From Tubulanus polymorphus (Eukaryota > Animalia > Nemertea), in assembly GCF_964204645.1 (NCBI RefSeq), contig NC_134034.1:7414914-7478913 (forward strand): DNA of 64,000 nt, written 5' to 3'. Both the position numbers and the translations under genes were made by a program. The first letter of the stretch is position 1; each line of letters starts with the position of its first letter. The notes below the pieces were generated by a model that was given only the letters and a program-made list of their open reading frames with translations, was not told where the DNA came from and did no database searches. Shown in pieces: positions 317 through 60,430 of the stretch.

Positions 317-1845
317 TTTGGGGAAAAGCATATTGAAATATTATATTTTGATTCTGTAACAGCTGACACCCCAATATTATTAAAATGTAATAATAAAATA
401 TTGGTAAGAAGAATTTCAGAAATAATTCCAAAACAAAATGAATGTTATATTTCATATAGTGAAAAAGAATTAATACAAATAAATGGATTAATGGATGTTT
501 GGACAAGAAATGGATGGAAAAAATTAAAGAATATTATTAGGCATAAAACAAATAAGAAAATCTATAGAGTTAGAACTAAATTAGGATTTGTAGATGTTAC
601 TGAAGATCATAGTTTAGTTAAACGAAATGGCGATGAAATAAAACCAACTGATATAAAAATTGGAGATGAATTATTACATAAACGATTTTTCCAAAGAATG
701 AATCATATGTCATTTGATGAAATAATTGATAATATTTATAATATAGAACCCGAAACATTAGAAGAAAAAGAATATTTTATCAAAGGATTTCTCATGGGTG
801 ATGGTTCAGCAGGTGTGTATAATAATGTTTGGGGTAATTAATATTGTTGGTATTTATGCAATCAAGACTTAAAATTATTAGAAAGAATTATAAAATTCTG
901 TGAAGAAGTTTATTCACATAAAACATTTAGAATCATGGATGTTATGAAATCAACAGCAGTTTATAGAATACTTGTAAATAATCCTAAAGATTTTGCTATA
1001 AAATATAATGATGAATTCTATATTCATGCAATAGTGAAAAGTAATACTTCAACAAAAGAAAAGATAGTTCCAGATTATGTATTAAATGCAAAAAATAATT
1101 TAAGAAAGTGGTTCTTCATTGGATTCTATGCCGCAAAACAATATCCTTTGCTCAAAAAGGAAAAGTTGCTATATCAGGATTGAATATATTATGCAGTTCA
1201 TTAGGATTTAATATGAATATAGAATTAATTAAATCTAAACCAAAATGTTTTAATTTAAGGCATGTAGAAAAAGAATTAACAGAAGAAGTTAAAGATTTAT
1301 TTGAAATATATAACCCAACTGACTATGTTTATGATTTATCAACAGATGATGGAACATTCAATTCTGGGTTCCCATTAATCCAAAAAAATACCGACAGTTA
1401 CATACTAAAAATCAAGACAAATGATATAACAAAAGACTTAAAAACATTAAAACATTATTTTGATTTTAGCAATTATCCCAAAGATCATGAACTATTTAGC
1501 AATGATAATAAAAAGATTCCTGGTAAATTTAAAGATGAATTAGGGGGTGATGAAATGATTGAATTTGTTGGGATAAGAAGTAAAATGTATAGTTACAGAA
1601 CAAAAGATCATGAAGCTAAAAAGTTAAAAGGAATAACAAAACATGTGGTTGATAAACATATAGAATTTCAAGATTATATAAAGTGTTTATATAAATCAAT
1701 TGTAATGAAACACAAAATGAATTGTTTAAGATCGGAAGATCACGAGATGTACATTAATGAAGTTGAAAAAACTAGTTTAAATCCATTTGATGATAAAAGG
1801 CATATTTTAGATGATGGTATAAAAACATTACCTTATGGTCATTAA
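317..1845 (+). pseudogene. Protein-primed family B DNA polymerase, C-terminal part with intein
   Basis: EILYFD-[intein]-TDSYIL, then PGKFKDE, EFVGIRSKMYS, KKLKGI, FDDKR, TLPYGH*. Stop at 839-841 and frameshifting deletion near 1135. Confidence 0.92.
353..1389 (+). mobile_element. Intein with LAGLIDADG homing endonuclease in pPolB motif C (degenerate)
   Basis: Block A SVTADTPILL directly after YFD; block B VDVTEDHSL; endonuclease motifs FIKGFLMGDGS and FFIGFYAA(DG deleted); block F YVYDLST; ends IQKN followed by T of TDS. Confidence 0.92.
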
Positions 1846-3158
1846 AACATAAAATCAATATCATCATAATCGAAATCACTATTGGCTTCTTCATTTTCAT
1901 TTAATTGTTTAGGTTCTTCTTCCATTTCATTTTTCTCATTTAAATAAAGTTCTATCTTGTTCCACATTTCATCTCGCTCTCTTTGTTTCGTTTTGTTTGT
2001 TAATTCATCAAATGGAATTATAATATCTATGTTTAAATAATTTACAATCTTATTTAAAAAGAATTCATAATTTATTGAATCTGTTATTCTATTTTCCAAA
2101 TGATACATTAATATTTGTTTGAATATTTTTTTTATATTTTTCATATCTTCTTCTGTTAATTTAGGTTTTTCATAATAATCGTTAAATAATAAATATAAAT
2201 ACATTTTCTTTTGTTTTGTGTTAAATGTTGACGGAATAATTGTTTTTATAATATCTTTTTTAGTTATTTCACCATTTTTATTTTCTATTATTTTCATTTT
2301 TTCAAGCCATTGCATATATTCTGGTGTATGATCTTCTATAGAAAATATTTTAAAAATTTCACCAAAATAATTTAATTTTGGATCTATGAGAAAATTTCTA
2401 GTTTTTTCTTCACCCAATAAATTCTTTTGCCATCCACAATCATTACAAAATAACACAGTACCTTCTTGTCTTAAGGTCACATAATTACATTGTGGGCATT
2501 TTCGTTTATAATTTATTGGTAATAGATCTTCATTAAGCTCTTGGTATTTTCTTACGTTTTCTTTATGTTTTATTGTTCTATTATGTAGATTTGAATTACT
2601 TGTTGTAATAATCAATTTACAATATTTACAATAATATGTTTTCCTTGTTAATTCATTATATTGTTTTTCTAACTTTTCAACTGTTTCTTTATTATCTGGT
2701 AACGTTTTCTCATATTTTATTTTTTCTAATAAATTATTTTTTCTTTCATTAAATTCAGTTTCAAATTTATTAGAAATTTTATCTATATGTACTTTACGAA
2801 ATTGATGATTCTCCCAATCTTCTATATTTTCAGGGCTATATTTTATTCGACAAGGCTCACAGAAATGATCTTTTATATTATCCTTATCATAGAATAAGAA
2901 AGGTCTTTTCCAAATAACTTCAGGTTCAACTTCGGCAGAATTACTATTACTTTCATTACTATCAACATTAGCCGTTGCGCCATTAATTCTACGCTTCTCT
3001 GAATGTTTTTTAACATAATTTCTTGAGAATAATTTATTACATTTTGGGCAGTTAATTTTAGGGGGTTTATAATTTTCATCATGTTTTTTCATATGTCGAG
3101 CCATATTTCTTTTTCTTAGAAGTTCACCACAAATTTCGCATGCTATCTTCTCATCCAT
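1842..3158 (-). CDS. Multi-zinc-finger protein with C-terminal VLTF3-like (poxvirus A2-type late transcription factor) domain
   Basis: Intact 438 aa. N-terminal C2H2/matrin-like fingers, zinc ribbon CPQC-x12-CNDCG, and C-terminal SINYEFFLNKIVNYL...KQRERDEMWNKIELYL, which resembles the VLTF3 C-terminal consensus. Confidence 0.6.
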   Translation of the reverse strand: MDEKIACEICGELLRKRNMARHMKKHDENYKPPKINCPKCNKLFSRNYVKKHSEKRRINGATANVDSNESNSNSAEVEPEVIWKRPFLFYDKDNIKDHFCEPCRIKYSPENIEDWENHQFRKVHIDKISNKFETEFNERKNNLLEKIKYEKTLPDNKETVEKLEKQYNELTRKTYYCKYCKLIITTSNSNLHNRTIKHKENVRKYQELNEDLLPINYKRKCPQCNYVTLRQEGTVLFCNDCGWQKNLLGEEKTRNFLIDPKLNYFGEIFKIFSIEDHTPEYMQWLEKMKIIENKNGEITKKDIIKTIIPSTFNTKQKKMYLYLLFNDYYEKPKLTEEDMKNIKKIFKQILMYHLENRITDSINYEFFLNKIVNYLNIDIIIPFDELTNKTKQRERDEMWNKIELYLNEKNEMEEEPKQLNENEEANSDFDYDDIDFMF

Positions 3159-3225
3159 TTATTAAGGAAAAATTTTATTAAAATTAATTTTTAGTGATTA
3201 GCGGTAATTTTTTATGTTATAAATA

Positions 3226-3984
3226 ATGGTAGAATTAAAAGAATACAGAATATTTGTTGATTCTAGAAAACTTACAAATTATAAATCACATAATTTACTA
3301 GTACAATTAGATAGAGAATTTAAGAATAGTGTACATTTAAAATTAGTTAATATAAGTTTATGTAACTCATTTTACAATATATCGGATAAAAGTCTAGAAC
3401 ATTTAATTTTTTCAATCTTTTACAAAAAAAGGAATAAATGGTTTTTTTAATATTTAAAACCAGGATTATATAATTTAGATACATTAGCACAAGAAATTAA
3501 TAGAAAAGCTCGAGCTAAATTAGGAAGTGATTCCGGATTTAGTATTAGAATTTTAAAAAGTGATAGTTCTAATAAAATAAAAATTAGGTTAGCTAATGAC
3601 GAACAATTTAAATTTACAGTAAGAAAACCTTTAGGTAAACTGTTAGGAATTAACCCAGATATTGTTACAGCATACGCAAAAGGTAGATCAAACTTAATAC
3701 CTTTTACATATTTTTATATTTATTGCAATTTGATTGACCCAACAAAAACATTTGAAGCAACTAAAGATACAATTTGTAATTCTGGTTTATTCAATATTTT
3801 ACCATTAAAAAATGTCAAACAATTTGAAACTCAAATAAATTATAATTTAACTGAATGTGATTTCAAACCTTGTATTCCACATTTCAATAATTTTAAATTA
3901 GAAATAAGAAATCATAATGGATATTTAATTGATTTGAATAACTTCCCTGTAATTTATGAATTAGTTATAATATGTAAAGAGTAA
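3226..3984 (+). pseudogene. Minor capsid (penton-like single jelly roll) protein
   Basis: IFVDSR...LxNISLCNSFYNI...LKPGLYN...YIYCNLI...LEIRNHNGYLIDLNN, the pattern of Polinton/PLV minor capsids. One in-frame stop at 3448-3450. Confidence 0.75.
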
Positions 3985-4000
3985 TTTTTTCATTATATAA

Positions 4001-4357
4001 ATGAATAAAACTGTTGGACCGAGTATATGTTTTGGGTTTGATTTTAAGCGTGAGAAAGAAATGAAATTTAACATTAATGATGTAATTACACATATCAAAA
4101 ATATTGCATTTTCTAATGAAACAACATTTGAGTATGAAACAACAATAGATAAAGAAACTTTAAATGTAGAAAAGATTAATAATTTAATTAGAGAATCTTT
4201 AAGATTTTATGAATTAGATGAAGATTTTATCATCGATGATATTAAAAAAATAATAATTGAAATATATACAAATGAAACTAGTAATGAAATAAATGTTGAA
4301 TTAATCATAAATAAGATAACTAAATATTTTGATGATAGTAATTTTTTTGATAAATAA
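4001..4357 (+). CDS. Family A hypothetical protein
   Basis: Intact ORF with TAAATG start; near-identical to 53770-54126. Confidence 0.7.
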   Translation: MNKTVGPSICFGFDFKREKEMKFNINDVITHIKNIAFSNETTFEYETTIDKETLNVEKINNLIRESLRFYELDEDFIIDDIKKIIIEIYTNETSNEINVELIINKITKYFDDSNFFDK

Positions 4358-4579
4358 ATGAGTGATAATAAGTGGATAATAACTGGATTATATAATGGCG
4401 CATTACTATCAGTTGGAACTGTTGGTTATTCAATGGTATTAAAAAAAGTATTTAAAATGGGAAGTGTTAATGTTGATAGATTTGATATAAATGATATTTT
4501 AAAATTAACATTAGCAGTTACTTTATCTAATTTAACAATTGATTATTTGGAAAAACAAAAATATATTCCTCCCATATAA
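4358..4579 (+). CDS. Small hydrophobic protein
   Basis: 73 aa, conserved in four copies; TAAATG start. Confidence 0.7.
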   Translation: MSDNKWIITGLYNGALLSVGTVGYSMVLKKVFKMGSVNVDRFDINDILKLTLAVTLSNLTIDYLEKQKYIPPI

Positions 4580-4603
4580 ATGCATAATTTTTTTGCTAAA
4601 TAA

Positions 4604-5024
4604 ATGGCTTCTGCAATTATAACTATTATAGGATCGGCAATTGTTAACGCTTTGGCATTTACTGGTGGTGGTTATTTATTTAAACATATTGATAAAAATA
4701 GTTCATTAGGAGAACAAAGAAGACAACTTAGCGTTTGAGAAATATAATTAAGCTGCAGAAGAATATAGAGAAAAAAGACAAAACTATATGGATTACATCA
4801 ATAAAGAATTATATGATCAGAAGATTTCACATAGAGATTTTCAATCAGTTGATGATGCAATGAGTTTATATAACGCAGTAACAAATAAAGAAAAATTACA
4901 CCTATACAAACCTAAATTATCAGATTATTATACCCCAAGTAATGAACAGAAGAAATATGAAATAATATGGATTTTAGGTGGAACTGTTATTGTTATATTT
5001 GTAGCATATAAGTTTACTAATTAG
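4604..5024 (+). pseudogene. Small protein with N- and C-terminal TM helices (MASA...NALAFTGGGYLF)
   Basis: Frameshifted homolog of intact 34492-34914, 53101-53523 and 61054-61476. Confidence 0.75.
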
Positions 5025-5043
5025 TAATTTTTTTTCTAAATAA

Positions 5044-5477
5044 ATGGAAGATAAAGTTGATAATATTGATATTATTCCTCATGATATAAATAAAAATAAA
5101 TTAAAAATATATTTAGAAAAAAAATATTAGAATTTGAAAGTGACTTAAAAGTTAAAAAGAAAAAATATCTAAAAAGTAAAATTATATATTATCTTATTAT
5201 CAGTGGTTCGGTTACAATTAGTTCTGTAATAACATTTCTAGCAATATTCAGTCCATTAACACTTTTAGCTATATCAATTGGTGTGTTAGGATTAAGTTCA
5301 AGTGTTTTAACCGGTATAAGTTCAAAATTAAACATAAAAAGTAATAAAGAAAAAATTAAAACTAATATAAAAGAAATTAATAAACTAAAGAACACACTAG
5401 ATTATATAATAAGTTTAAATGGTCATATAACAGTTGAAGAACAAGATAAATTATTAAAAGAATTAATAAATTATTAA
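5044..5477 (+). pseudogene. Two-TM-helix protein
   Basis: TAAATG start, frameshift near 5120, hydrophobic hairpin; homologs in the other copies. Confidence 0.7.
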
Positions 5478-5493
5478 TTTTTTAATTATATAA

Positions 5494-6879
5494 ATGGTAG
5501 ATAGTTTTCCAAAAGCTTTCCAATATAATAAATCAATTAAATATAATATTCCAGCAATAGATTTTAATAAAGATATTTCATATAGAAATGAAGTTTTAGA
5601 TTCATTAACTAATTTAGAAATTTATGTTACTGAAACTAATTTTAATGCAAAGATGGAAAATATATTTCATGTATATTTAATTAATTTTAAAAAATTGAAA
5701 GATGAAAAACAATGGTTATTAAAATCTAATATGAAGTATTGGCAGAACCAATTATATTTTGCTGTTTATTGTGCAACAACAGGATGCGGAATTAGTTGGA
5801 ATGATCATTTGAATAATTCTAAATATAAATTAATTCAAAGTTTATTTAGATTTCATACATACTTTCAAATAAGAATAATATTAAATGAATTAGAGTGCGC
5901 TTTACCAGGATCTAGGTATTTTAAAGAATTAGATAATAATATTAATTTATCAAAGTTTTATAAAATTTGTAATGAATTTAATATAGATATAAATAATTCT
6001 GATTTTAGAACAAAAATTGGAACAATAAGATCACTTCCTTGCCCTAAAAAGATTGCAGAATATTGTGCACTTCCCATACCATCCAATAGTTTGTATAATA
6101 TCTATAGTCATAAATTAGGTTATGGTAAAATAGAAACTAAGGATTTAGAAACATTAAATTTTAATAAATTACCGACATTTTATGATAATTTAAAACAAGA
6201 AAATAATGATGGTTGGGTTAATTTTATTTTAGAAAATAGTGAAGGTTTTACAAAATCAGGTATACAAAGAATAAATCAATCTATTAGAACTTATTTGATA
6301 TGTATTTTAGGTGCACAAGTTGAAACAAGATCCCCAATAATTGGAAATTTAAATACATCATTTGATACACAAAAACAATTCAAAGTATTATTTGAAGATT
6401 CCATACATAATGATAAAAATAGATCGATTGCAGAAAACATTGTAAGATATCAAAATTATTTAGATAAATCACATATTAGATTAAATTATTGTATAGGCCC
6501 TAATCTATTAATTATTTCTAATGATTGAGTATTAAAGATGGGAAACATAATTGGTTATGATAATCTAATTAAAACTGCAACAATAAATAATTCATTTGGA
6601 TTGAATGATATAAATAAAAAGATAATTACTGCTCCAAAATTAATGGAAGGTGAAAAAAATAAAAAACATATTCAATCAACAGAAACTAAAACTAAGAATA
6701 TTAAATTGGATAATGACTCCAAAATAAAAGATTACAATACATCAGAAAATATAAGAACTGATAATATTCAACATGATATAATTAAAACAGATAATGATAA
6801 TAAATCCCATGAAAATACTAAATTAGCTATAACTTGTATAGGAATTGTAATCGGAGGAATATTATATTTTAAATTTTAA
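5494..6879 (+). pseudogene. ~460-aa family A protein with C-terminal TM anchor
   Basis: ORFs 5494-6528 and 6538-6879 are in one frame, split by TGA where other copies have TTA. Confidence 0.75.
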
Positions 6880-6895
6880 TTTTTTTATTATATAA

Positions 6896-8352
6896 ATGGA
6901 TGTAGAAGGTGGAGAAGATATTGGAATAGATAATTTTGATGAACCTGGTATAACTGATGAACAACCACCTGATTTTGATGAAACAAGTTTCAGTAACGAA
7001 AATGAAACAGCATATAATTCTAATTTAGCAAGACCTGATACTAATGAATATTTATAGGAGCTAAATCGAGAATACCTACTGAAAATGAAAATCCAGATTT
7101 AATGAAAAAAGAACTAGAATATGACAAATTAAATGATAAATTCAAACCAATATTAGAAAAATCTGGATTCAATATAACAAATAAAGGTGTGAATTATTTA
7201 GTAAAAGATTTGAAATATTTAAATGATGATTATTATTGGCATTTGAAAAATGACTATTATTTTAAGATTTCTTCTAATAAAAGTCTTGATAAAATAATAA
7301 CAAAATCAACTTTTATTAAATTAGAACAATCTAAAATTAAGAAAATCAATAATGATGTTATAACTGATGTTACAGAAGAAGAGATAAATCAAAATAGAAG
7401 AGAATTTAATCGAAGAAATAATGATTTTTTGAAGATAATTAATGAAAATTTAGAACCAGAAACAATTCCTAAAGAAGATAAAACTTCCAAAACTAGTAGA
7501 CCTAATTCAAGAGAAGTTCAAACTGAAAAACTTTTACCGAAGGGATTACTTGATGCAACAGATCAAGAATTAGAAGATTTAGATATATTTTCTGATAAAG
7601 CAATTAGAGAAATTATTAGTATAAGACATGCATCTGATAAAATTGCGCATGATAAAAGTATAAGAGATTTTAAAATTAGAACTTTAGAAAAAGAATTAAC
7701 TGATAAAAATAAAGAAATAGAAAAAATAAAGTCTGATTTAGATCATCAAGTAATTGATGAAATAGAATATAGGCAAAAAGAATTACGTTTAGAAAAACAA
7801 AAAGATGATTTAGAATATAACATAGAATTACAAAAAGAAGAAATTGAATTATTATTAAAATCATATGATTATAATATTAATAGATTAAAAGATGTTTTTA
7901 AAAGATATCTAATAAAACCAGATTCTAAAATATCATTGAAAGATAGAATAAAATTATTATTTAAGTTTGAAGGAATAACAATTCTTTCAATTCTAACAGC
8001 TGTAACTATGTTATTTACAACAATTGGCTTAGCTATATCAAATGCTTTAAAATCTACTGCTACTCCCAATAAACCGGATAAACCCCCAGATAATAATTCT
8101 ATACAAGATAAAGTTAAAGATGGTTTAAAGAAATTAGCAAAATATTTATGGGAACTATCTAAAAAATCTGCAGCAGCTTTACCAGGAATTATTGCATCAA
8201 TTGTTGGTTTTATATTGAAATCTGCAGGAAACATTATTAACTTTGCTGCTGAACATATTATTTTATTTTTAATTACAGTTGTAAGTGCTATTATTTTTGG
8301 GTTAGTAAATATGATATCAAAAAGATATCAAGAAAAAAATAATAAAAAATAA
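6896..8352 (+). pseudogene. Acidic N-terminus / coiled-coil / C-terminal TM protein
   Basis: MDVEGGED start (TAAATG), frameshift near 7055, coiled coil, hydrophobic C-terminus conserved across copies. Confidence 0.7.
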
Positions 8353-8376
8353 ATAATTAATTTTTTTGTTTAATAA

Positions 8377-9619
8377 ATGAGTGGGAGTTATATAAGTCCT
8401 TCTAAGATTTCTAGAATATCTAATGCTATTAAAGCAGAAAGATCACATCAGATAATTACTAATAACCCTTCAAATATTAATCCTGGTGAAACTTTATATG
8501 TTAGAATTCATCGATTAACACAAAATACTTTTTATGTTCCAAATAGTATTTATTTATCAGCCGATAGTAACTTGCCATGATAACAATTATGTTGTTGATA
8601 ATGTTGGAAGATATTTGATTAAAAGATTAACTATAAAGATTGTTCCGGAAACAGTTTTCTCATTAGATGATTATAATTTATTTATGCATTATAAAGATTT
8701 ATGGTTAACTAAAGAAAATAGAAATAATATGATATTTCAGGGTATTCAATTGGAAAACCATAATAAATTAAGATCAGGAGCTAATGACGCAATAGTAACT
8801 AATGCTACAGATAATTTGATAAAAAAGATTTATGGAAGCAAATATAAAATTCCATTAGACTTTGAATTGATGAATAATAATGCGCCTTTATACAAATACG
8901 CAATTCAAGAAGATATTATATTCGAGATAACATTTGCTCCTGTAAATGAAATTGTATTATCTAGCATTGTTAAAGATATGGGTTATGAATTATCGAATAT
9001 ATGTTTGGAATTTGATACAGTAACTAATGAAAATATTGCTAGCACAATTCAAACTCAATACAATCAAGGATTTTCATTATTATGTGATTATATTGATAAA
9101 TTTAAAACTGTAACTATTAATGCAAATGATGAAATAATTAATGAGAATATTAACTTCCCAAGAAGATCTATTAAAGGTATATTAATATTTTTTACCATTG
9201 CAACATATTCTAATGGTGCAATAAATGTTGATGATTATTATAATCCTGAAATAACAAAAGTACAAATAACTATCGAAGGTATAGCAAATAAAATATTTTG
9301 CCAAGGAATGAGAATGATAGATCAGTGGCCAGAAATTAGAAAACATTTTATGAATGAAAAAGTAAAATCATTTGAAAATTGTAATATTAATCAAATTGAT
9401 TATTATACCAGCAATAAATATGCATTATGGTTAGATTTTAGAACAACAGAGGATAATTCATTACATGGTTCTGGGGAAAAACTACAGAACACTAAAGATG
9501 GAATACAATTATTCATGACAAAGAATAAAGGAATCAAAAATTTTAAAATGCACATTTATATTATATCTGACGCACAATTAGATATTGTAAATTCACAATT
9601 AGATAGTATTCAATATTAG
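8377..9619 (+). pseudogene. Major capsid protein (double jelly roll), frameshifted
   Basis: Homolog of intact 38416-39663; frameshift near 8570; size and position next to integrase and ATPase. Confidence 0.75.
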
Positions 9620-9649
9620 AAATATAAAGTTAAAATTAAGGATATAGAA

Positions 9650-10777
9650 ATGGGTGGTAAAAAAACTCCTAATACTAAAGAACAATATTTAAGAAATTTA
9701 TATTACAACCCTGAGAGTTCGGTTGCTTATTCTTCTACTAAAAAAATATGGCGTAAAGTAAAACAAGATAAATTATATAAGATAATCCCACAAAATTTAG
9801 TTAAATATAAAGATATAAATGAATTTATGTTAGAACAACCAACATATACAACACTTAAAAAAATTGTTAGAAAATATAAAACTCGTAAAACTATGGTAAG
9901 TTATGTAGATCAACAGTGGCAAGGAGATTTAATTGATTTGAAAAATGTTAAGAAAGATAATGATGATTATTGGTGGTTATTGAATATAATTGATATTTTT
10001 AGTCGTTATGTATGGAGCTTCCGACTTTATAGAAAAGATGCTGTACAAACATCAAATGTTTTAAGAAAATTTCTTTCGGATGATAAACTAAAACCAGAAA
10101 AAATACAATTTGATGATGGAAAAGAGTTTGATAATTCACTTGTTCATGAACTCTTAGATAATCATAATATTAATTATTTTTCAACAAAATCAGATAAAAA
10201 AGCAGCAGTTGTTGAACGATTTAATAGAACATTAAGAACGAGAATGTGGAAATATTTTACAGCAAATAATACTTTTAAATGGATTGATGTTTTACCAAAA
10301 TTGATAGAAGGATATAATAATTCTTATCATTCTTCTATTGGAATGAAACCTATTGATGCTAGAAAACCTGAAAATGCTGGAATTGTTTGGAATAATTTAT
10401 ATGGAGCATTTCTTGTAGATGATTTTGGTGAACCTAAATTTAAAGTTGGTCAAAATGTTAGAATTTCTAAGTATAAAAAGATATTTGACAAAGGATACGA
10501 TCGAAATTTTACTAGGGAAATATATAAAATAAAAAAGGTAATAACAACAAAACCATATGTCTATAAATTAGAAGATTTAGATGGTGAAGAAGTTGATGGC
10601 TACTTTTACGAAGAAGAATTAAGTTTAACTACTGAAAATCTAGAACAAGAATATAAAATTGAAAAAGTATTAAAAACAAAAACTATTAAAAGAAAAAAAC
10701 ATTCTTTAGTAAAATGGGTTGGATGGCCAGATAAATTCAATGAATGGATATTATCAAGTAAAATTAAAAATATATAA
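9650..10777 (+). CDS. Retroviral-like (rve) integrase with C-terminal chromodomain
   Basis: Intact 375 aa. WQGDLID, IIDIFSRY, QFDDGKEF, VERFNRTL (DDE); chromodomain YKIEKVL...VKWVGWPDKFNEWI. Confidence 0.95.
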   Translation: MGGKKTPNTKEQYLRNLYYNPESSVAYSSTKKIWRKVKQDKLYKIIPQNLVKYKDINEFMLEQPTYTTLKKIVRKYKTRKTMVSYVDQQWQGDLIDLKNVKKDNDDYWWLLNIIDIFSRYVWSFRLYRKDAVQTSNVLRKFLSDDKLKPEKIQFDDGKEFDNSLVHELLDNHNINYFSTKSDKKAAVVERFNRTLRTRMWKYFTANNTFKWIDVLPKLIEGYNNSYHSSIGMKPIDARKPENAGIVWNNLYGAFLVDDFGEPKFKVGQNVRISKYKKIFDKGYDRNFTREIYKIKKVITTKPYVYKLEDLDGEEVDGYFYEEELSLTTENLEQEYKIEKVLKTKTIKRKKHSLVKWVGWPDKFNEWILSSKIKNI

Positions 10778-11648
10778 ATGAATAAAGAATTATTTAAATT
10801 TGAGCCTCATAATATGTTAATATCTGGCGTAACAAATTGTGGAAAAACTTATTTTATATTAAATTTATTAGAAACTGTTTATGAAAACTATTTTGATAAT
10901 ATAGTATTATTTTGCCCAACGTATGAATTTAATCAAACTTATGATAGAAATATTACTAGAAATAATAAATTTATTATATTAGATCCTAAAACAGTAAAAG
11001 AAAATTTAGATAATTGTATTAAAATAGCAATTGATATTTATAAAGGATCAAATACATTATTCATTATAGATGATTGTGCTAATCTACATGATTCAAAAGT
11101 TAGAGAAAGTGAGTTATGCTATTTAGCTTTGGTAGACATTTTGGAATAACAACATGGGTTTTAAATCAAAAATATAATTCAATTGTTAAAGACTTTAGGG
11201 AGAATATAAGATTTCTAGTTTTAATAATAAATTTATTATATTAGATCCTAAAACAGTAAATGAAAATTTAGATAATTGTATTAAAATAGCAATTGATATT
11301 TATAAAGGATCAAATACATTATTCATTATAGATGATTGTGCTAATCTACATGATTCAAAAGTTAGAGAAAGTGAGTTATGCTATTTAGCTTTTTCTGGTA
11401 GACATTTTGGAATAACAACATGGGTTTTAAATCAAAAATATAATTCAATTGTTAAAGACTTTAGGGAGAATATAAGATTTTTAGTTTTATTTTATTATAA
11501 AGATAGAAAATCGATGAAAAATGCGCTTGAGGAAAATGATATTATTCCACATGATTTACATAATGAATATATGGATAAGTTGAAAAATATTAAAAGATCA
11601 AAATTACTATTTAGATTACAACACCCATTTAAATATGAATTTATTTAA
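10778..11648 (+). pseudogene. A32/FtsK-like packaging ATPase with internal tandem duplication
   Basis: Walker A GVTNCGKT, Walker B FIIDD, SGRHFGI. About 260 bp (~10961-11222) is duplicated. Confidence 0.9.
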
Positions 11649-11925
11649 ATTCAACTAGCTTGTTAATCAATTACATATTTAGTTACATTCTAGTTGAATT
11701 CTAGTTATTGGTAGTTGTAACAAAAATCAACTAGATTTTAACAATATTGTAACTAGCTTGTTAATCTAGTTTAATTCTAGTTACATTCTAGTTGAATTCT
11801 AGTTATTGGTAGTTGGAACAAAAATCAACTAGATTTAACAAGAAATAAACAAAAATAACAATATTTCAACTAGCTTGTTAATCTAGTTAAATTCTAGTTA
11901 CATTCTAGTTGAATTCTAGTTGCAA
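11646..11925. repeat. Iterated CTAG-rich direct/inverted repeat block
   Basis: Repeated AATTCAACTAG, CTAGTTGAATTCTAG and CTAGTTACATT units; also at 45470-45760. Confidence 0.85.
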
Positions 11926-11953
11926 TATCACAACTAATTTTTTTGTTATATAA

Positions 11954-12539: not shown

Positions 12540-12638
12540 ATCACAGAAACAAATTAGATGGTCTCGGCAATTAGGAATTAAATCACAAGAATATAAAAAA
12601 GCTGTATTCATTATTTTTATTAATTTATTTTTTTAAAT

Positions 12639-33575: not shown

Positions 33576-33582
33576 AATCTAA

Positions 33583-38392: not shown

Positions 38393-38415
38393 TTATTTAT
38401 TTTTTTGTTGAATAA

Positions 38416-39663: not shown

Positions 39664-39695
39664 AATTTTAACTTTAATAAAAATTTATATAATAA

Positions 39696-49334: not shown

Positions 49335-50832
49335 TTATTTTCTATCATGTTTACTTGATATTTTTTGATATATCATGTTTACTAACCCAAAAATAATAGC
49401 ACTTACGACTGTAATTAAAAATAAAATAATATGTTCAGCAGCAAAGTTAATAATGTTTCCTGCAGATTTCAATATAAAACCAACAATTGATGCAATAATT
49501 CCTGGTAAAGCTGCGGCAGATTTTTTAGATAGTTCCCATAAATATTTTGCTAATTTCTTTAAACCATCTTTAACTTTATCTTGTGTAGAATTATTATCAT
49601 TCGGGGGTTTATCCGGTTTATTGGGAGTAGGAGTAGATTTCAAAGAATTTGATATTGCTAAACCAATTGTTGTAAATAACATAGTTACAGCTGTTAGAAT
49701 TGAAAGAATTGTTATTCCTTCTAATTTAAATAATAACTTTATTCTATCTTTTAATGATATTTCAGAATTTGGTTTAATCAACAAATCTTTAAAAATAACT
49801 TTTAATCTATTAATATTATAACCATATGATTTTAATAATAATTTAATTTCTTCTTTTTGTAATTCTATGTTATATTCTAAATCATCTTCTTCTTTTTCTA
49901 AACGTAATTCTTTTTGCCTATATTCTATTTCATCAATTACTTGATGATCTAAATCAGACTTTAATTGTTCTATTTCTTTATTTTTATCAGTTAATTCTTT
50001 TTCTAAAGTTCTAATTTTAAAATCTCATACTTTTATCATGCGCAATTTTATCAGATGCAAGTCTCATACTTTTAAATTCTCTAATTGCTTCATCAGAAAA
50101 TATATTATTTAAATCTTCTAATTGTTGATCTGTTGCATCGATTAATCCATTCGGTAAAAGATTTTCAATTGGAACTTTATTTGATTTAATTTTACTAGTT
50201 TTGGAAGTTATATTCTGTTCAGAAGTTGTTTCTGTTTCTGATTTCTTTTTGAATATTTCAAATAATTCATTAATTCTTTGTTTAAATACGTCTATATAAT
50301 CATTAGTTAATTCTTGTTTTAAAACATCAGTTATTACATTACTATTACTTATTCTTTTAATTCTATCTGGTTCTAATTTTTCTTAAGTTGATTCTGATAA
50401 TATTTTGTTTTCACGTTTATAAGTAATATCAATATAATAATCACCTTTCAAATGATAATACCATTTACCATTATCTAAAAATTTTAATTGATCTGCTAAA
50501 AGTCCAACGTCTTCATCATTTATGTTAAGTTTAGAATTTTCAATGATATGTTCTAATTTAGGTATTTTGTTTAAATTATATAAATCTTGTTTTACTAAAT
50601 CTGGGTCTAAATTTTCAGGATTTAATTGTGATTCTGCATTTTTAATATAATCAGGCATATTTAAATTATTATTATATTCTGGCTCATTACCGTCATTAAA
50701 ACTTGTTTCACTAAAATATTCTGGCTCATTACCGTCATTAAAACTTGTTTCACTAAAATCAGGTTGTTGTTCATCAGTTATGCCAGGTTCATCAAAATTA
50801 TCCATTCCAATATCTTCACCTTCTACATCCAT
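49335..50832 (-). pseudogene. Homolog of 6896-8352
   Basis: Same termini, third central variant, small tandem duplication (FSETSFNDGNEPEY x2). Confidence 0.7.
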
Positions 50833-50848
50833 TTATATAATAAAAAAA

Positions 50849-52162
50849 TTAAAATTTAAAGTATAATATTCCTCCGATTACAATTCCTATACAAGTTAAA
50901 GCTAATTTAGTATTTTCATGGGATTTATTATCATCATTTAGTTTAATTATTTCATGTTGAATATTATCAGTTCTAATACTTTCTGATGTATTGTAATCTT
51001 TTATTTTAGAATCATTATTTAATTTAATATTCTTAGTTTTAGTTTCTATTGATTGAATATGTTTTTTATTTTTTTCACCTTCCATTAATTTTGGAGCAGT
51101 AATAATCTTTTTATTTATATCATTCAATCCAAATGAATTATTTTTTGTTGCAGTTTTAATTAGATTATTGTAACCAATTATGTTTCCCATCTTTAATACT
51201 AAATCATTAGAAATAATAAATAGATTAGGGCCTATACAATAATTTAATCTAATATGTGATTTATCTAAATAATTTTTTCTATCTTACAATGTTTTCTGGA
51301 ATCGATCTGTTTTTATCATTATGAATGGAATCTTCAAATAATACTTTGAATTGTTTCTGCGCATCGAATGAAGTGTTATCATTTCCAATTATTGGGGATC
51401 TTTTTTCAACTTGCGCACCTAGAATACATATCAAATAAGTTCTAATAGATTGATTTATTTTTTGTATGCCTGATTTTGTAAAACCTTCACTATTTTCTAA
51501 AATGAAATTAACCCAACCATTATTGTTTTGTTGTTGTATATTATTATAATATTTTGGTAATTCATTCCAATTTAGTGTTCTTTGAATGAATGTCATTATT
51601 TTCCCAAATTCTTTGGTATATAATATTCCTAATCCACCCATTGTTCCAATTTTTGCTCTGAAATCTTTATTTGAATTACATTACATATTTCATAAAACTT
51701 AGAAAAATTAATATTATTATTCAATTCTTTAAAATATTTTGAACCTGGTAAAGGACATTCTAATTCATCTAATATTAATTTTATTTGAAAATAAGTATGA
51801 AATCTAAAAAGTGATAACATCAATGGTAACCTTGGTTTATTTAAATGATCATTCCAACTAATTCCACATCCTGTTGTTGCACAATAAACAGCAAAATTTA
51901 ATTGGTTCTGCCAATACTTCATATTAGATTTTAATAACCATTGTTTTGCCTCATTTAAATTTTTAAAATTAATTCAATACACATGAAATATATTTTCCAT
52001 CTTTACATGAAAATTATTACTTTAAGTAACATAAATATATAAATCAATTAATGAATTTAAAACTTCATTTCTATATGTAATATCTTTATTAAAATCTATT
52101 GCTGGAATATTATATTTAATTGATTTATTATATATGAAAGCTTTTGGAAAACTATCTGCCAT
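50849..52162 (-). pseudogene. Homolog of 5494-6879 (allele shared with 35386-36733)
   Basis: ORF fragments 50849-51190, 51279-51641 and 51629-51922. Confidence 0.75.
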
Positions 52163-52178
52163 TTATATAATTAAAAAA

Positions 52179-54126
52179 TTAATAATTTATTAATTCTTTT
52201 AATAATTTATCTTGTTCTTCAACTGTTATATGGCCATTTAAACTTATTATATAATCTAGTGTATTCTTTAATTTATTAATTTCTTTTATATTAGTTTTAA
52301 TTTTTTCTTTATTACTTTTTATATTTAATTTTGAACTTATACCAGTTAAAACACTTGAACTTAATCCTAATACACCAATTGATATAGCTAAAGGTGTTAA
52401 TGGACTGAATATTGCTAGAAATGTTATTACAGAACTAATTGTAACAGAACCACTTATAATAAGATAATATATAATTTTAGATTTTAAATATTTTTTCTTT
52501 TTAACTTTTATATCATTTTAAAATTCTAATATTTGTTTTTCTAAATATATTTTTAATTTAGTTTTACTGATATCATGAGGAATAATATCAATATTATCAA
52601 CTTTATCTTCCATTTATTTAACAAAAAAAATTACTAATTAGTAAATTTATATGCTACAAATATAACAATAACTGTTCCACCTAAAATCCATATTATTTCA
52701 TATTTCTTCTGTTCATTACTTGGGGTATAATAATCTGATATTGTAGGTTTATGTAGATGTAATTTTTCTTTATTTGTTACCGCGTTATATAAACTCATTG
52801 CATCATCAACTGATTGAAAATCTCTATGTGAAATCTTCTGATCATATAATTCTTTGTTAATATAATCCATATAGTTTTGCCTCTAGAAATGTTATTACGG
52901 AACTAATTGTAACCGAATCACTAATAATAAGATAATATATAATTTTAGATTTTAAATATTTTTTCTTTTCCATCTTTAAGTCACTTTCAAATTCTAATAT
53001 TTGTTTTTCTAAATATATTTTTAATTTAGTTTTATTTATATCATGAGGAATAATATCAATATTATCAACTTTATCTTCCATTTATTTAGAAAAAAAATTA
53101 CTAATTAGTAAACTTATAAGCAACAAATATAACAATAACTGTTCCACCTAAAATCCAAATTATTTCATATTTCTGTTGTTCTTTACTTGGGGTATAATAA
53201 TCTGATATTGTAGGTTTGTATAGATGTAATTTTTCTTTATTGGTAACCGCGTTATATAAACTCACTGCATCATCAACTGATTGAAAATCTCTATGTGAAA
53301 TCTTCTGATCATATAATTCCTTGTTAATATAATCCACATAGTTTTGTCGTTTTTCTCTGTATTCTTCTGCTGCTTTATTGTATTTCTCTAATGCTAAGTT
53401 ATGTCTTCTTTGTTCTCCTAATGAACTATTTTTATCAATATGTTTAAATAAATATCCACCACCTGTAAATGCTAAAGCGTTAACAATTGCCGATCCTATA
53501 ATAGTTATAACTGCAGAAGCCATTTATTTAGTAAAACAATTACGTGTTTATATGGGAGGAATATATTTTTGTTTTTCCAAATAATCAATAGTTAAATTAG
53601 ATAAAGTAACTGCTCATGTTAATTTTAAAATATCAATTATATCAAATCTATCAACATTAACACTTCCCATTTTAAATACTTTTTTTAATACCATTGAATA
53701 ACCAACAATTCCAACTGATAGTAATGCTCCATTTTATAATCCAGTTATTATCCACTTATTATCACTCATTTATTTATCAAACAAATTACTATCTTCAAAA
53801 TATTTAGTTATCTTAGTGATGATTAATTCAACATTTATTTCATTACTAGTTTCATTTGTATATATTTCAATTATTATTTTTTTAATATCATCGATGATAA
53901 AATCTTCATCTAATTCATAAAATCTTAAAGATTCTCTAATTAAATTAGTAATCTTTTCTACATTTAAAGTTTCTTTATCTATTGTTGTTTCATACTCAAA
54001 TGTTGTTTCATTAGAAAATGCAATATTTTTAATATGTGTAATTACATCATTAATGTTAAATTTCATTTCTTTCTCACGTTTAAAATCAAACCCAAAACAT
54101 ATACTCGGTCCAACAGTTATATTCAT
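52179..54126 (-). pseudogene. Small-ORF block with partial duplication of two genes
   Basis: 53770-54126 and 53101-53523 intact; junction near 52882 repeats the two-TM genes. Confidence 0.75.
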
Positions 54127-54142
54127 TTATATAGTGAAAAAA

Positions 54143-55305
54143 TTACTCTCTACATCTTATAACTAATTCATAAATTACAGGAAAGTTATTCAAATCAATT
54201 AAATATCCATTGTGATTTCTTATTTCTAATTTAAAATCATTAAATTGAGGAATACAAGGTTTAAAATCACATTCAGTTAAATTATAATTTATTTGAGTTC
54301 CAAATTGTTTGACATTTTTTAATGGTAAAATATTTAATATACTAGAATTACAAATTGTATCTTTAGTTGCTTCAAATGTTTTTGTAGGATTAATTAAATT
54401 GCAATAAATATAAAAATGTGTGTAAGGTATTAAGTTTGATCTACCTTCTGCGTATGCTGTAACAATATCTGGGTTAATTCCTAACAGTTTACCTAAAGGT
54501 TTTCTTACTGTAAATTTACATTGTCATTAGCTAACCTAATCTTTATTTTATTAGAACTATCACTTTTTAAAATTCTAATACTAAATCCGGAATCACTTCC
54601 TAATTTAGCCTATCTGGATACCTGTTGTCGCAATATAGTGCCTTTAACAACATTGCTTCTTGTAAACCATACTTGATAAAAATATAAACCCGATTACTCT
54701 TAAATCCACAATTTAGAAATATAAACACCATTATATTCGGCCTACAGTACAGCTAAACTGCTGAGCTTGCCTGACTTCCGGGTTCATCAGTGCTCGATTC
54801 ATCGACAGTAACTAAAAATAGATCAGGTGCGCTGCGCTATTTGGTGTAGCATCAGCATTGCGTATCCATACATCTGGGTTATTCCTTAAATTTTAGCAAA
54901 AGGTTTTTTAACTAGAAATTGATGTTGATCTTCATTACCTAATTTTATTCTTATTTTATCAGAGCTATCACTTTTAATCAGTCTTAATCCAAATCCAGCA
55001 GATGCACCCATTTTTAAACGAGCTCTTCTATTAATTTCCTGCGCTAATGTATCTAAATTATATAAACCTGGTTTAAGATAAAGATGAAACCATTTACTTT
55101 TATTTCTATCATGAATTAAAAAGACTCTATGTTCAATAGTTTTATCCGATACATTGTAAAAAGAATTACATAAACTTATATTAACTAATTTTAAATCTAC
55201 ACAATTCTTAAATTCTCTATCTAATTGTACTAGTAAATTATGTGATTTATAATTTGTAAGTGTTCTAGAATCAACAAATATTCTGTATTCTTTTAATTCT
55301 ACCAT
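54143..55305 (-). pseudogene. Minor capsid gene made of two different alleles separated by foreign DNA (~54611-54855)
   Basis: 5' part reads RARLKMGASAGFG; 3' part restarts at AKLGSDSGFS, as in copy 1. Confidence 0.7.
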
Positions 55306-55319
55306 TTATTTTACATATT

Positions 55320-55674
55320 TTATTCAAAATCTATTTCATGGTGCCCTTTTTCATTCTTACCTTTGTTTACGAAATAGAAATCACCAGAACATAATTCTTC
55401 TAGATCTTCACTTGATAATCTATGAAATCTATCTGGTAAATATGTTCTGAATTTATATTTATTTCCTTTTAATCCTTCATATTCTAAGTGCATAACTAAT
55501 TTATCTCCATATTTGTTAATAACTGTAACAATATCTGTAATTAGATATTTCTTATGGATTATTAATTCTTTTAACTTCTTAAATTTATAATCTACTGATT
55601 TGACATTTGAAGTATTTTTTTATTCTATCTAGAAATAATTTGTGGTTCTCACTGTTTGCTTGTTTACTCTCCAT
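55320..55674 (-). pseudogene. Small protein (NKYGDK...TYLPDR), homolog of 12639-12961
   Basis: TAAATG start, frameshift, shared GKNExGHH C-terminus. Confidence 0.55.
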
Positions 55675-55703
55675 TTATAATACATATTTTTATTAAAATT
55701 TGA

Positions 55704-58700
55704 TTAACACGTTAGAATTCTTTTCATAATCTCATTCTCTTTTGTTTCTTCTCTTTTGAACTTTAGATATTCATCTAAATTATAACCATACGCAACTGTA
55801 TGCATTCCATCATCTAAAATATATCTTTTATCGTCAAATGGATTCAAACTAACCTTTTCAATTTCTTCAATAAACATTTCATGATCTTCAGATCTTAAAC
55901 ATCTCATCTTATGTTTTCTAACTTCTTCATTGAATATACAATTGATGTAATCTTTGAAATGAATATTCTTTTCAACAACGCTTTTGGTAATTCCTTTTAA
56001 CTTTTTAGATTCATGAGTTTTAGTTTTATATGAATACATTTTAGATCTCAATCATTTCTTCACCACCTAATTCATCTTTGAATTTACCAGGAACCTTTTT
56101 ATTATCATTGCTAAACAATTCATGATCTTTAGGATAGTTACTGAAATCAAAATGATGTTTTAAAGTTTTTAAATCATCAGTTATGTTATTAGTTTTTATC
56201 TTTAATATGTAACTGTCAGTATTTTTTATGATTAATGGAAATCCACAATTAAATGTACCATCTTCAGTTGTTTAAATCATAAACATATTCTGTAGGATTG
56301 GATATTTCAAATAAATCTCTAGCTTCTTCAGTTAGTTCATTTTCTACATGCGTTAATTGAAATACATTTGGTTTATCTTTTCCAATATTAACTAACATAT
56401 AAAATCCTAATGAATTGCATAATATATTTAATCCTGATATAGCAACTTTTCCTTTTTGTGTCAAAGATAAAGTTTTCTGTTTTGTATAGTTTTTTGAACC
56501 ATCTGCAGCATAAAATCCAATGAAAAACCATTTTCTTAAATCATATTTTGCATTTAATACATAATCTGGAACTATCTTTTCTTTTGTTGAAGTATTCCTT
56601 TTAACTATTGCATGAATATGGAATTCATCATTATATTTAATTGCACAATCTTTAGGGTTATTTACAAGTATAAATTGCTGATGATTTCATATAATCTACG
56701 ATTTTAAATGTTTTATGTGAATAAACTTCTTCACAGTATTTTTAAATTCTTTCTAATAATTTCAAATCTTGATTGCATAAATACCAACAATATTGAGTGC
56801 GGTTAACATAATTATACACACCTGCTGAACCATCTCCCATAAAAAATCCTTTGATAAAATATTCTTTTTCTTCCAATGTTTCGGGTTCTATATTATAAAT
56901 ATTAACAATTGTTTCATCAAATGACATATGATTCATTCTTGGGTAAAATCTTTTTTGTAATAATTCATCTCCAATTTTTTGACGCCTTTTAAAACGTTAC
57001 CATTATGAAACCTAAACAATGTTAACCATTCAGCGTCATTTTACAAACGACAGCCGTAAATCGATGTGCAAAACGTCACAGGTCTATGTGTACACAAACA
57101 AGCTATCTGGCAAAATATTATTGACATAGATGTAGAATGGCTTCCTGTGATTATATAATGACCTATACTTGAACGTCGAAATGTTATATTGCATTGAATA
57201 TCATTAGAAGACGTATCGTAATAGTAAAGGATGTATGATTATATCAGAAGCGGCAGGCATAAATAGAAATGATAAGTAAATCGGATTATTCGGTTAAATG
57301 GCGGATGTATACACGATTTGGAAGTCTGATATAAAAGTCAGACCCTGACGAGGGCATGCAGGTGGAATGACGAAGCTATCTACGATGTGTGTAGGGCCGG
57401 CGTGAATTTCATCAGCGGCTGGCTACAAGCGGTCAATATGAAAATGTGTAAACATATAATTTCAATATTCAAACGTTTTAGAAAATATGTTTGATATTAG
57501 GAGTATGCAGGTTTCGTGAGATTAGCAATTTATAATAGCATAGCTATCATATACGGCTCCGCGTCCTCTGATGGCATGTGTATTAGGTGACAATTCAATT
57601 CTTTATTGATCCTTACATTGAAATTTCGGGATAAAATTCCCAAATTCAATAAATACAAATTTTAAAATAAATTAATACAACATACATGACACACGGGTAA
57701 TTCATACAGAACAACATAAGCATGTTATTTTAAATGACAATGTCTACTTCAACCCACCCAGACTCAAGACTCTAGGATATCGAGTGACAGCCAAACCCCT
57801 GGCCCGGGCCGGCTGGCTAGGCCACACGATATGCTAGAAGTCATGATGAAGCAGACATCAGAAGAGCTCGTTCTTCAACCATGGAGGCAATGAAGTTGCA
57901 GACCAGCTTAGAGGCATAAGTAAATGAAGTCGGTCGCAAGTTCGCGATCAATTATTGAGAATTTTCAATAAAAAAATTTAAACCACTACTAGAGTCGAAG
58001 ACCCGCTGTATCATCTACCCAATCGCCAAATCTCATCATTCCCCAAATTTCTTAAAACTTCGATTTCAAATTTGCAATTCCACATAAGCTTAGCCCAGAA
58101 ATTATACATTTTTTTTCGCAGGCGTCAAATAATTTTCTAAAATTAATTTTCTTGTTATATCAGTTGGTTTTATTACATCACCATTTTGTTTAATTAAACT
58201 ATGATCTTCAGTAACATCAACAAATCCTAATTTAGTTCTTACTCTATAAATCTTTTTATTTGTTTTATGTCTAATAATATTCTTTAATTTTTTCCATCCA
58301 TTTCTTGTCCAAACATCCATTAATTCATTTATTTGTATTAATTCTTTTTCATAATACGAAATATAACATTCATTTTGTTTTGGAATTATTTCTGAATTTC
58401 TTCTTATCAATATTTTATCATTACATTTTAATAATATTGGGGTGTCTGCTGTTACAGAATCAAAATATAAGATTTCTATATGCTTTTCTCCAAAATGAGG
58501 TTGTAATACATTATAATAGAATTCATACATTAATAACTTTGATAATTCTAAAACTGATGCCCCAACATAAATTGGTTTATTAAATTTCATAGAAGTTCTT
58601 CTCATTTTAACTGAAGCTAAATTTTCATCAAATATTCTGTTACCTATAAATTTAGGGTATGTTTGTAAATGTCTAATTCTTTTACCATTACTTACTAACT

Positions 58701-59920
58701 CAATATCATTACTATTTCTAATATTTTCACAAGTCTTACCATAGAATGCATTGTTCATTAACTTGAAGAAATCTTTCTCGAAATCAGTTTTAGCATCAGT
58801 TCTCTGTTTGGTGTTAAAATCTATATATTTTTCTAACCACTTAGATTGACTACATGAAATATATCTATGTACTTTTTTTTAGAACCATTCCTTGGTTCAA
58901 ATAAAACTTTAACATTCTATAATGTACTACATAATTATATTTACCTTCTTGAATTCCATTAACTTTTCTGTATGAATATGATTTTCGGGTTTAATTCTTT
59001 TTTGATAATTTGATAGTTCTTCACGAGTTACAGTTTTATGTTCGGGGCAGTATGCTAGATTTCTAGATTTAAATTTAATATGTTCAGGATATTCTAAATC
59101 TACAACAAAGAAGTAACCTGTATCCGAATCATCTGCAATATCTAGGATTCTTTTCTTCCAATCAAATTTATAATTATTTTCATGTTGTTAAACTTCACTT
59201 ATTTCAAATACTCCATAAGGTTGTGGTTCCATCATTGCCCAACCATACAAATTATTTGCATCTATATATAATAACTTATATCCAGGGTTATCATTTACAT
59301 TGAAATATCTATCGCCTAATACACCTGAAACTCCTCCTCTTATAGATTTTTCAAATAATAATAATTGATCTATATTTGTTAACAAATCCATTTTGATATC
59401 TGTAAATTTTAATCCACAATCCCAAGTTAAACCTGGACTAGAATAACAATGACAAGGATCAATGTTAAAATATTTTAAGTTTACATCTCTAAACCTTTCA
59501 AATATATCGATTTATAATAATACATCTGATTTTAGATATAGATCTACTAATTGTCCATGATTTATTATTTAAAAATGATTCCAAATATTTTTTAATTCAT
59601 CATAGAATTGTTCTTTTAATAATTCAGTTATATTAAAATCATTATGATATTTATAGAAAGAATATGGAATCGCTCCTTTATATCTCATTAATTGGAAATC
59701 ATCATTATTTGGATAGTGTTGTTTTAATATTTTTAATTCATCATCAACTAATGATTTTGATAAATTATCTAATGAACTATTTAAAAATCTATATGAATCT
59801 ATAAATCTTAGGCAACCAAATTGGAATGATATATAATTCTCAGATGTTCTAGCTAACATTTTAAATTTATAAGTTGGTATTTTATCTTTTGATCTATTTG
59901 AATTTAATCTTTCTTTTTCA
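55704..59920 (-). pseudogene. Family A pPolB with intein
   Basis: FIDSYRFL, YIDANNLYGWAM, KLMNNAFYGKT, YFD-[intein]-TDSY, FDDKR. Confidence 0.93.
56221..58458 (-). mobile_element. Second copy of the pPolB intein, with ~1.2-kb foreign insertion (~56978-58155)
   Basis: SVTADTP start, TEDH, FIKGFFMGDGS, FFIGFYAADGS, YVYDL, ends IIKN/T. Confidence 0.92.
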
Positions 59921-60430
59921 TTATATAATGTTCATTATAATATCTTTTATCACTGAATGATTGATTACATGTATCACATTTGTATGTTTCTTTTTCATTT
60001 TTTAATTCATCTAATTTAGTTTCTAATATATCATCTTCATATTCTAATTTCAATTTATTCTCTAAATGTGTTTTAGTTTTATTGTCTTGCTTTTTGGGAT
60101 TTATCTATATTGATTTTACATGTTGAACAGTAGTACTTATTTGTTTCCATTTTAATACTAAATTTTTTTTAAAATTTATTTTACACATTTTATTCATTTA
60201 TATGTTATTCAATGATTTAAATATGAATTATTTACATCACACTTTACTGACACTTTTAATGTTTAAAAATCTAACTCATACAAATATAAATATTGAAATA
60301 TGTTTAAAATATATCTATATATCTATCTATAATGGCTCGTTAATTACTCGTTACATTTTTACTAACACTTTTATATTGAATAATCTATCCATTTATATGT
60401 TATTCATATATGTTTTATTCATGTATATTA

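What the first reader, a model, noticed from the sequence alone, without database searches (positions are those of the whole stretch)
317..60420. Candidate system: helper-dependent, virophage-like integrating virus tied to an unknown large DNA virus
Four traits that point to Nucleocytoviricota co-occur in one integrase/capsid/ATPase element: PolB-site intein, VLTF3-like gene, TAAATG promoters and an NCLDV-type HNH nuclease. No RNA polymerase is encoded. Intein homing needs co-residence with a donor genome. By analogy with Mavirus, integrated copies could be reactivated by, and interfere with, a giant or pox-like virus.
Basis: inference. Interest (0 to 1): 0.88.

Follow-up and report, generated by a model that had tools for sequence, protein, structure and literature searches.

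The report
Polintovirus with poxvirus-style gene starts
These are broken copies of an integrated Maverick/Polinton-type DNA virus whose genes nearly all begin with the poxvirus late-promoter motif TAAATG, which suggests it likely borrows the transcription machinery of an unidentified pox-like virus.

Summary
The window holds four truncated, mutated copies of one AT-rich polintovirus. Its genes include pPolB, rve integrase, A32 ATPase and a double-jelly-roll capsid. Ordinary transposons lie between the copies.

The four traits are real but unequal.
- TAAATG is the strong one. It starts 34 of 38 mapped window genes and 29 of 31 ORFs in largely intact relatives, against 5 of 22 and 53 of 415 in controls. 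An upstream T-run matches vaccinia late promoters.
- The VLTF3-like gene is confirmed indirectly. It is present in one copy only and is already known in coral polintoviruses.
- The intein sits at the same PolB site as giant-virus inteins but is only about 40% identical to them. All six pPolB inteins form one clade. Empty and filled alleles coexist, so it needs no large-virus donor today.
- The HNH nuclease also matches a phage family strongly, so it is not diagnostic.

No helper virus, expression, reactivation or antiviral effect was shown.

Verdict: a new variant of Maverick/Polinton that likely depends on pox/asfar-like late transcription (0.55). Host Pol II transcription remains a serious rival.

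The parts
293..13312 (+). Polintovirus copy A (truncated, mutated)
293..1845 (+). C-terminal part of group-2-type pPolB, broken
   Evidence: 61% identity to P0001
353..1389 (+). LAGLIDADG-type intein at catalytic YxD|TDS, broken by a stop and a frameshift
1842..3158 (-). Zinc-finger-fused VLTF3 (A2L)-like gene with a TAAATG start
3226..3981 (+). Probable minor capsid protein, broken (name from position and recall; no library hit)
5494..6879 (+). Conserved 442-aa gene of unknown family, broken
8377..9619 (+). Major capsid gene, copy A, broken
9650..10777 (+). rve integrase with chromodomain
   Evidence: Pfam rve 6.7e-10, Chromo 4.3e-4
10778..11645 (+). A32-like packaging ATPase, broken by an internal duplication
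   Evidence: Pox_A32
13097..13312 (-). HNH remnant between short direct repeats
32779..44098 (+). Polintovirus copy B (large deletions)
38416..39663 (+). Double-jelly-roll major capsid protein, 415 aa
   Evidence: AF2 pLDDT 88; Foldseek PBCV-1 and SGIV E 3e-17
41164..41817 (+). Free-standing HNH/EndoVII-like nuclease
   Evidence: PHROG_1035 8.9e-17
44546..60150 (-). Polintovirus copy C (many stops; no VLTF3-like or HNH gene)
55779..59913 (-). pPolB of copy C with intein, broken
56980..58151 (.). 1.17-kb, 37% GC insertion with short inverted ends inside the copy C intein
60431..60713 (.). 283-bp palindromic element with an AGTAGT end, between copies C and D
60706..64000 (+). Polintovirus copy D (runs off the window)
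33970..33993 (+). Example of the gene-start motif: T-run, short spacer, TAAATG

Best explanation
These are decayed integrated copies of a Maverick/Polinton-type virus whose genes nearly all start with TAAATG behind a T-run, and whose active form likely relies on the late-transcription machinery of a co-infecting pox/asfar-like large DNA virus. Shown: the gene set, the motif, VLTF3 homology and the intein polymorphism. Inferred: a helper RNA polymerase would initiate inside TAAAT and make mRNAs with 5' poly(A) leaders. The element's pPolB, capsid and ATPase would then replicate and package it, and its integrase would store copies in the host genome. The accessory VLTF3-like protein would tune or redirect the helper's late initiation. 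The intein likely crossed once, long ago, between large-virus and polinton polymerases (direction not resolved) and now likely homes from polinton to polinton.
For: TAAATG starts 29 of 31 ORFs of at least 100 aa in relatives L038-L041 (MCP 69-74% identical) and 34 of 38 mapped starts in the window. Controls: 5 of 22 in AT-rich virophage-like loci (p 1e-7) and 53 of 415 in large-virus loci. Only 1 of the 29 abuts an upstream gene's stop, so gene packing does not explain it. T at -12 in 27 of 29, with T-rich -13/-14, fits the vaccinia late promoter, described as TAAAT(G) with a T about 10 nt upstream (PMC11980589). The -3 base is T in 29 of 31, whereas A is commonest in the controls; this argues against a translation-context explanation (Kozak rule recalled). 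AATAAA lies inside 28 of 28 coding sequences, with no depletion against synonymous shuffles (124 vs 123+-6). High AT content impairs nuclear expression of yeast cytoplasmic elements (PMC6211774). L038 also carries a deoxynucleoside kinase. Precedents: mavirus promoters match its helper's late motif (10.1101/068312), and PLVs occur with entomopoxviruses (PMC11296320).
Against: No helper was found, and no host genome was held in which to look for one. The VLTF3-like domain is only 27% identical to its nearest true VLTF3 and is missing from copy C. Small viruses without RNA polymerase, such as mriyaviruses and some PLVs, also carry VLTF3, so the gene does not imply a helper. Coral polintovirus hallmark genes were expressed in control samples as well as heat-stressed ones (PMC11131425; clade not matched to this one). 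I had no AT-matched control of a Maverick known to be transcribed in the nucleus, and the motif was tested only in close relatives. The nearest inteins are in giant-virus MAG polymerases (P0011 matches L001), not in poxviruses.
Confidence: 0.55

Rival explanations
1. An autonomous nuclear polintovirus. Host RNA polymerase II reads the TAAATG promoters, helped by the element's own zinc-finger/VLTF3-like activator, and no helper is needed.
For: VLTF3 occurs in small viruses and PLVs and in coral polintoviruses whose hallmark genes are expressed in controls. The element integrates, so it reaches the nucleus. Chloroviruses use VLTF3 without their own RNA polymerase (recalled).
Against: The motif is near-universal, while the VLTF3-like gene is absent from copy C; read depth over it is about 220-300 against about 640-870 over the MCP (different likeness thresholds). 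All 28 of 28 genes contain internal AATAAA. A TATA-like word abutting the ATG leaves no room for a normal Pol II start (inference).
Confidence: 0.3
2. A relic. The pox-like motif, intein and VLTF3-like gene come from an ancestor that met large viruses, and the family now only multiplies or decays as a transposon.
For: All four copies in the window are broken. The family is high-depth and divergent in run X6. Intein identity to large-virus inteins is only 40-44%.
Against: The motif is kept at 29 of 31 starts in relatives with rearranged gene order and MCPs 26-31% divergent, which implies selection until recently.
Confidence: 0.12
3. TAAATG is a by-product of high AT content and stop-start gene packing.
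For: The element is 20-25% GC.
Against: Background is 5-9% of ATGs in L038-L041, only 1 of 29 abuts a stop, and AT-rich controls are low.
Confidence: 0.03

Closest known systems
Group-2 Maverick/Polintons (polintoviruses), including VLTF3-bearing stony-coral elements (PMC11131425)
   Same: pPolB with EndoVII insert, rve integrase, DJR MCP, A32 ATPase, SLATT-like gene and VLTF3-like gene. The MCP family has 932 clusters, many on megabase contigs.
   Different: Carries a true splicing intein in pPolB and a near-universal TAAATG start motif; neither was found described in my searches. No adenain-type protease motif was seen. The exact clade was not placed by tree.
Entomopoxvirus-associated PLVs (PMC11296320)
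   Same: Polinton-like elements linked to poxviruses.
   Different: Those were found physically with the poxvirus, and the paper's main text does not contain the words promoter, intein or VLTF3. Here the link is sequence signal only.
Mavirus / endogenous virophages (10.1101/068312)
   Same: Integrating virus with pPolB and rve whose promoters match a large virus's late motif.
   Different: Different motif and a shorter capsid protein (415 aa); likely an animal host; dependence and defence untested here.
Yeast cytoplasmic virus-like elements pGKL1/2 (PMC6211774)
   Same: AT-rich pPolB replicons with a TAAAN initiator.
   Different: pGKL2 supplies its own RNA polymerase and has no capsid or integrase (capsid/integrase absence recalled).
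Giant-virus PolB inteins
   Same: Same insertion site and the same intein family.
   Different: Host protein is a protein-primed PolB; a separate clade at 40-44% identity.

Membership tests
Maverick/Polinton (polintovirus) | Protein-primed PolB | tested here: met
   59-61% identity to P0001, which is DNA_pol_B_2 at 5e-17
Maverick/Polinton (polintovirus) | Retroviral-type integrase | tested here: met
   rve 6.7e-10
Maverick/Polinton (polintovirus) | DJR major capsid protein | tested here: met
Maverick/Polinton (polintovirus) | A32-like ATPase | tested here: met
   Pox_A32 7e-13
Maverick/Polinton (polintovirus) | Minor capsid protein | tested here: inconclusive
   Candidate gene at 3226-3981; no library hit; not folded
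Maverick/Polinton (polintovirus) | Adenain-like protease (typical of group 1; group 2 content is variable) | tested here: inconclusive
   Motif scan found none in the window or L038-L041 but did find one in L042; the relatives are partial contigs
Maverick/Polinton (polintovirus) | Terminal inverted repeats and 6-bp target duplication | tested here: inconclusive
   No matching ends in the window because the copies are truncated
Virophage (mavirus-like) | Virophage-type MCP and protease | tested here: inconclusive
   Mavirus and Sputnik rank below PBCV-1 and iridovirus at 11-13% identity; no tblastn hit to L042/L043; no tree built; leans against membership
Virophage (mavirus-like) | One promoter motif shared with a large virus's late genes | tested here: met
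   Pox-late-type motif at 29 of 31 and 34 of 38 starts; the helper itself is unknown
Virophage (mavirus-like) | Replication requires a co-infecting large virus | not testable with these tools
   No helper sequence or infection data available
PolB-site intein family of large viruses | Insertion at YxD|TDS with S...N ends and a LAGLIDADG domain | tested here: met
VLTF3 (poxvirus A2L) | Zn ribbon plus Pox_VLTF3 domain | tested here: met
   Indirect, through P0327 and Foldseek; no direct Pfam hit

The most novel reading that the evidence does not exclude
A widespread animal polintovirus lineage is a hyperparasite of undiscovered pox/asfar-like viruses. Every gene is wired to the helper's late promoter, the captured VLTF3 redirects the helper's polymerase, and the many integrated copies act as an inducible, mavirus-like defence. 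Such elements also carry a true splicing intein family that spreads by homing inside animal genomes.
Probability: 0.3. Interest if true: 0.9.

Novelty: new variant of a known kind. Interest (0 to 1): 0.62.

Why it matters
Whether animal Mavericks are autonomous or depend on a helper is a long-open question; no virions have been observed (10.64898/2026.06.19.733378). [quoted passage not shown] Separately, a polymorphic intein with flank divergence typical of homing, in polinton polymerases, would be a rare case of intein homing in animal-associated DNA.

Tried and rejected
Searches that gave nothing:
- No host genome was held.
- The word-index homolog search of the VLTF3 region found 0 of 670 candidates. 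A PDB sequence search and a VIA fold search of its low-confidence model gave only generic hits, best Z 7.1. No VLTF3 was found among 570 ORFs of the fetched loci.
- MCP and integrase scans of viral contigs and genome contigs found no relatives, nor did the phage collection. The motif could therefore not be tested in the distant (~38% identical) MCP group.
- Rfam gave 0 hits. Earlier scan findings: none.
- Expression: no RNA holder was listed, and the one guessed RNA run laid 0 records; this is no evidence either way.
- The atlas could not read the VLTF3-like protein.

Readings rejected:
- TTTTTNT depletion in coding sequences (8 vs 20.6) as a pox signal, because the controls show it too (6 vs 17).
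- 'NCLDV-type HNH' as a marker.
- The intein as proof of present co-residence with a large virus.

Rows dropped:
- The intein tree used 78 of 120 listed hits (full-length, 300-460 aa) plus the window's 261-aa N-terminal part. The careful tree used 34 of those 79 rows.
- L041 nearly duplicates L040; without it the motif count is 26 of 28.
Full report
Anatomy. The window alternates 21-28% GC blocks with ~40% GC blocks. Self-alignment shows the AT-rich blocks are four partial copies of one element: A 0.3-13.3 kb, B 32.8-44.1 kb, C 44.5-60.2 kb on the minus strand, and D from 60.7 kb. Every copy has stops, frameshifts or deletions, and no pair of matching termini was found. Between A and B lie DIRS-like RT/RNaseH, a hAT transposase, a group-1-type pPolB with a PC4 gene, and a Gypsy-like RT. 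This suggests an animal host (inference; host not identified). In DNA run X6, 41,594 reads laid on copy B, mostly 90-99% alike, at hundreds-fold depth, so the family has many diverged copies; no single-copy baseline was measured.

Core genes. The integrase (rve plus chromodomain) and the A32 ATPase hit Pfam. The 415-aa ORF at 38416 folds at pLDDT 88 into a double jelly roll matching PBCV-1, iridovirus, mavirus and Sputnik capsids and has 932 homolog clusters. The pPolB is 59-61% identical to P0001 and has the EndoVII insert. Four metagenome contigs, L038-L041, hold largely intact relatives with partly rearranged gene order. L038 adds a deoxynucleoside kinase and the start of a VLTF3-like gene, 86 of 90 residues identical to P0324. 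It is a Maverick/Polinton-type virus.

Intein. It spans 353-1389 at the catalytic YxD|TDS site, the site used in most of the 120 listed homologs; a minority are in topoisomerase II. The top hits are in other protein-primed polymerases (45-60% identity), including one group-1-type pPolB (P0006); large-virus PolBs follow at about 35-41%. All 6 pPolB rows form one side of a branch, 99 in the 79-row quick tree and 100/99 in the 34-row careful tree; the root is not inferred. The sister group in the quick tree includes P0011, the PolB of giant-virus MAG locus L001.

Intein polymorphism. Two 90%-identity pPolB clusters contain both filled and empty alleles. In one, filled versus empty alleles differ by 0.3-2% far upstream but by 11% and 22% in the windows flanking the site (7 vs 5 proteins). 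That is the pattern expected from co-conversion during homing from another polinton. In run X6, 35 reads from 24 start positions skip exactly the 1,037-nt intein, against a depth of about 250 within it. The intein thus records an old exchange with large viruses but does not need one now.

VLTF3. The C-terminal 215 aa of 1842-3158 find 4 proteins among 1.84 billion. One of them, P0327 (27% identity, E 7.5e-5, residues 16-203), is Pox_VLTF3 at 1.3e-24 with an A2L zinc ribbon. Foldseek on a poor model (pLDDT 46) ranks cowpox VLTF3 first, with several more VLTF3s near the top. The gene is zinc-finger-fused and accessory. VLTF3 in coral polintoviruses is published (PMC11131425, section 8 read), citing Krupovic and Koonin 2016, which I could not open.

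Promoter motif. In L038-L041, 29 of 31 ORFs of at least 100 aa begin TAA-ATG, against a background of 5-9% of ATGs. In the window, 34 of 38 starts mapped by orthology do so. Controls are 5 of 22 in L042-L043 and 53 of 415 in L001-L037. L042-L043 are AT-rich loci that I read as virophage-like from their gene content; 9 of their 22 starts carry a different word, TATCT. Only one TAAATG doubles as the previous gene's stop. Positions -18 to -12 are A/T only, with T at -12 in 27 of 29.

What the motif resembles. Vaccinia late promoters are TAAAT plus G overlapping the start codon, with a T about ten bases upstream (PMC11980589, passages). Slippage at this initiator makes 5' poly(A) leaders in vaccinia and in yeast linear elements (PMC6211774, passages). 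An ASFV-like late motif, TATATA, is also compatible with many starts (PMC11788076, passages). The signal therefore points to Pokkesviricetes broadly (inference). All 28 coding sequences tested contain AATAAA, with no avoidance; this is weak support because I lacked a nuclear control.

HNH and RNA polymerase. The HNH gene matches phage PHROG_1035 strongly and is patchy among copies and relatives: a mobile nuclease with no diagnostic value. No RNA polymerase motif was found, as expected of any Maverick.

Mechanism. Best reading (0.55): the active virus is transcribed by a co-infecting pox/asfar-like virus, as mavirus genes are induced by CroV (10.1101/068312, passages), and integrates for storage. 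Main rival (0.30): host Pol II with the element's own activator. VLTF3 occurs in small viruses and PLVs (10.64898/2026.06.19.733378, passages and sections 5 and 7), and coral polintovirus genes are expressed in control samples. Defence against a large virus is pure analogy.

Novelty. Polintons with VLTF3 and pox-associated PLVs are known (PMC11296320: abstract, two of seven parts, and a supplement search without hits). Homing-endonuclease insertions in pPolB have been ascribed to intein invasions (PMC11071308, passage). Searches for polinton+intein, maverick+TAAATG, polinton+late transcription factor+promoter motif+animal, maverick+intein+protein-primed+homing endonuclease, polintons+A2L+late transcription factor and polinton+poxvirus+late promoter (listings, plus passages of PMC12220804 and PMC3671162) showed no description of a splicing intein in pPolB or of a pox-type start motif in polintons. 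Subscription papers and bioRxiv supplements were not searchable, and only 4,040 characters of the coral paper's supplement were held, so prior mention is not excluded. Passages of PMC8502044 and 10.1101/2024.03.23.586382 added nothing decisive.

Verdict: a new variant of a known kind, interest 0.62.

Noticed in passing
window 26088-31458: Fragment of a second, ~40% GC group-1-type Maverick: split, partly inverted pPolB, PC4 gene, 28-bp and 79-bp tandem arrays. Its starts lack TAAATG.
   Followed up: partly
window 60431-60713: 283-bp palindrome with an AGTAGT end between copies C and D; possibly a miniature Maverick-derived element.
   Followed up: no
window 56980-58151: Non-coding 1.17-kb insertion with short inverted ends inside the copy C intein; no other copy in the window.
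   Followed up: partly
window 13060-13121, 42636-42719, 44450-44529; L038 2449-2532: A ~70-bp non-coding sequence recurs at different intergenic sites in copies and in a relative; no Rfam hit in the window.
   Followed up: partly
P0006: A group-1-type pPolB carries an intein of the same clade, implying transfer between the two Maverick polymerase groups.
   Followed up: partly
P0060; P0074, P0084, P0090, P0092, P0093, P0095, P0103: The same intein family occurs in a protein named Chloropicon primus DNA polymerase delta and in topoisomerase II at a D[QA]D|TDG site.
   Followed up: no
L042 and L043: AT-rich virophage-like contigs with related pPolB; L042 has a TATCT word upstream of most genes.
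   Followed up: partly
P0165 cluster: Close MCP homologs are labelled Bartonella sp. on short contigs, probably host contamination.
   Followed up: no
window 13745-19765 and 20511-22904: A broken DIRS-like retrotransposon and an open 797-aa hAT transposase ORF.
   Followed up: no
window 52415-53346: 467-bp tandem duplication in copy C; copy A has a 262-bp duplication inside its ATPase gene.
   Followed up: no
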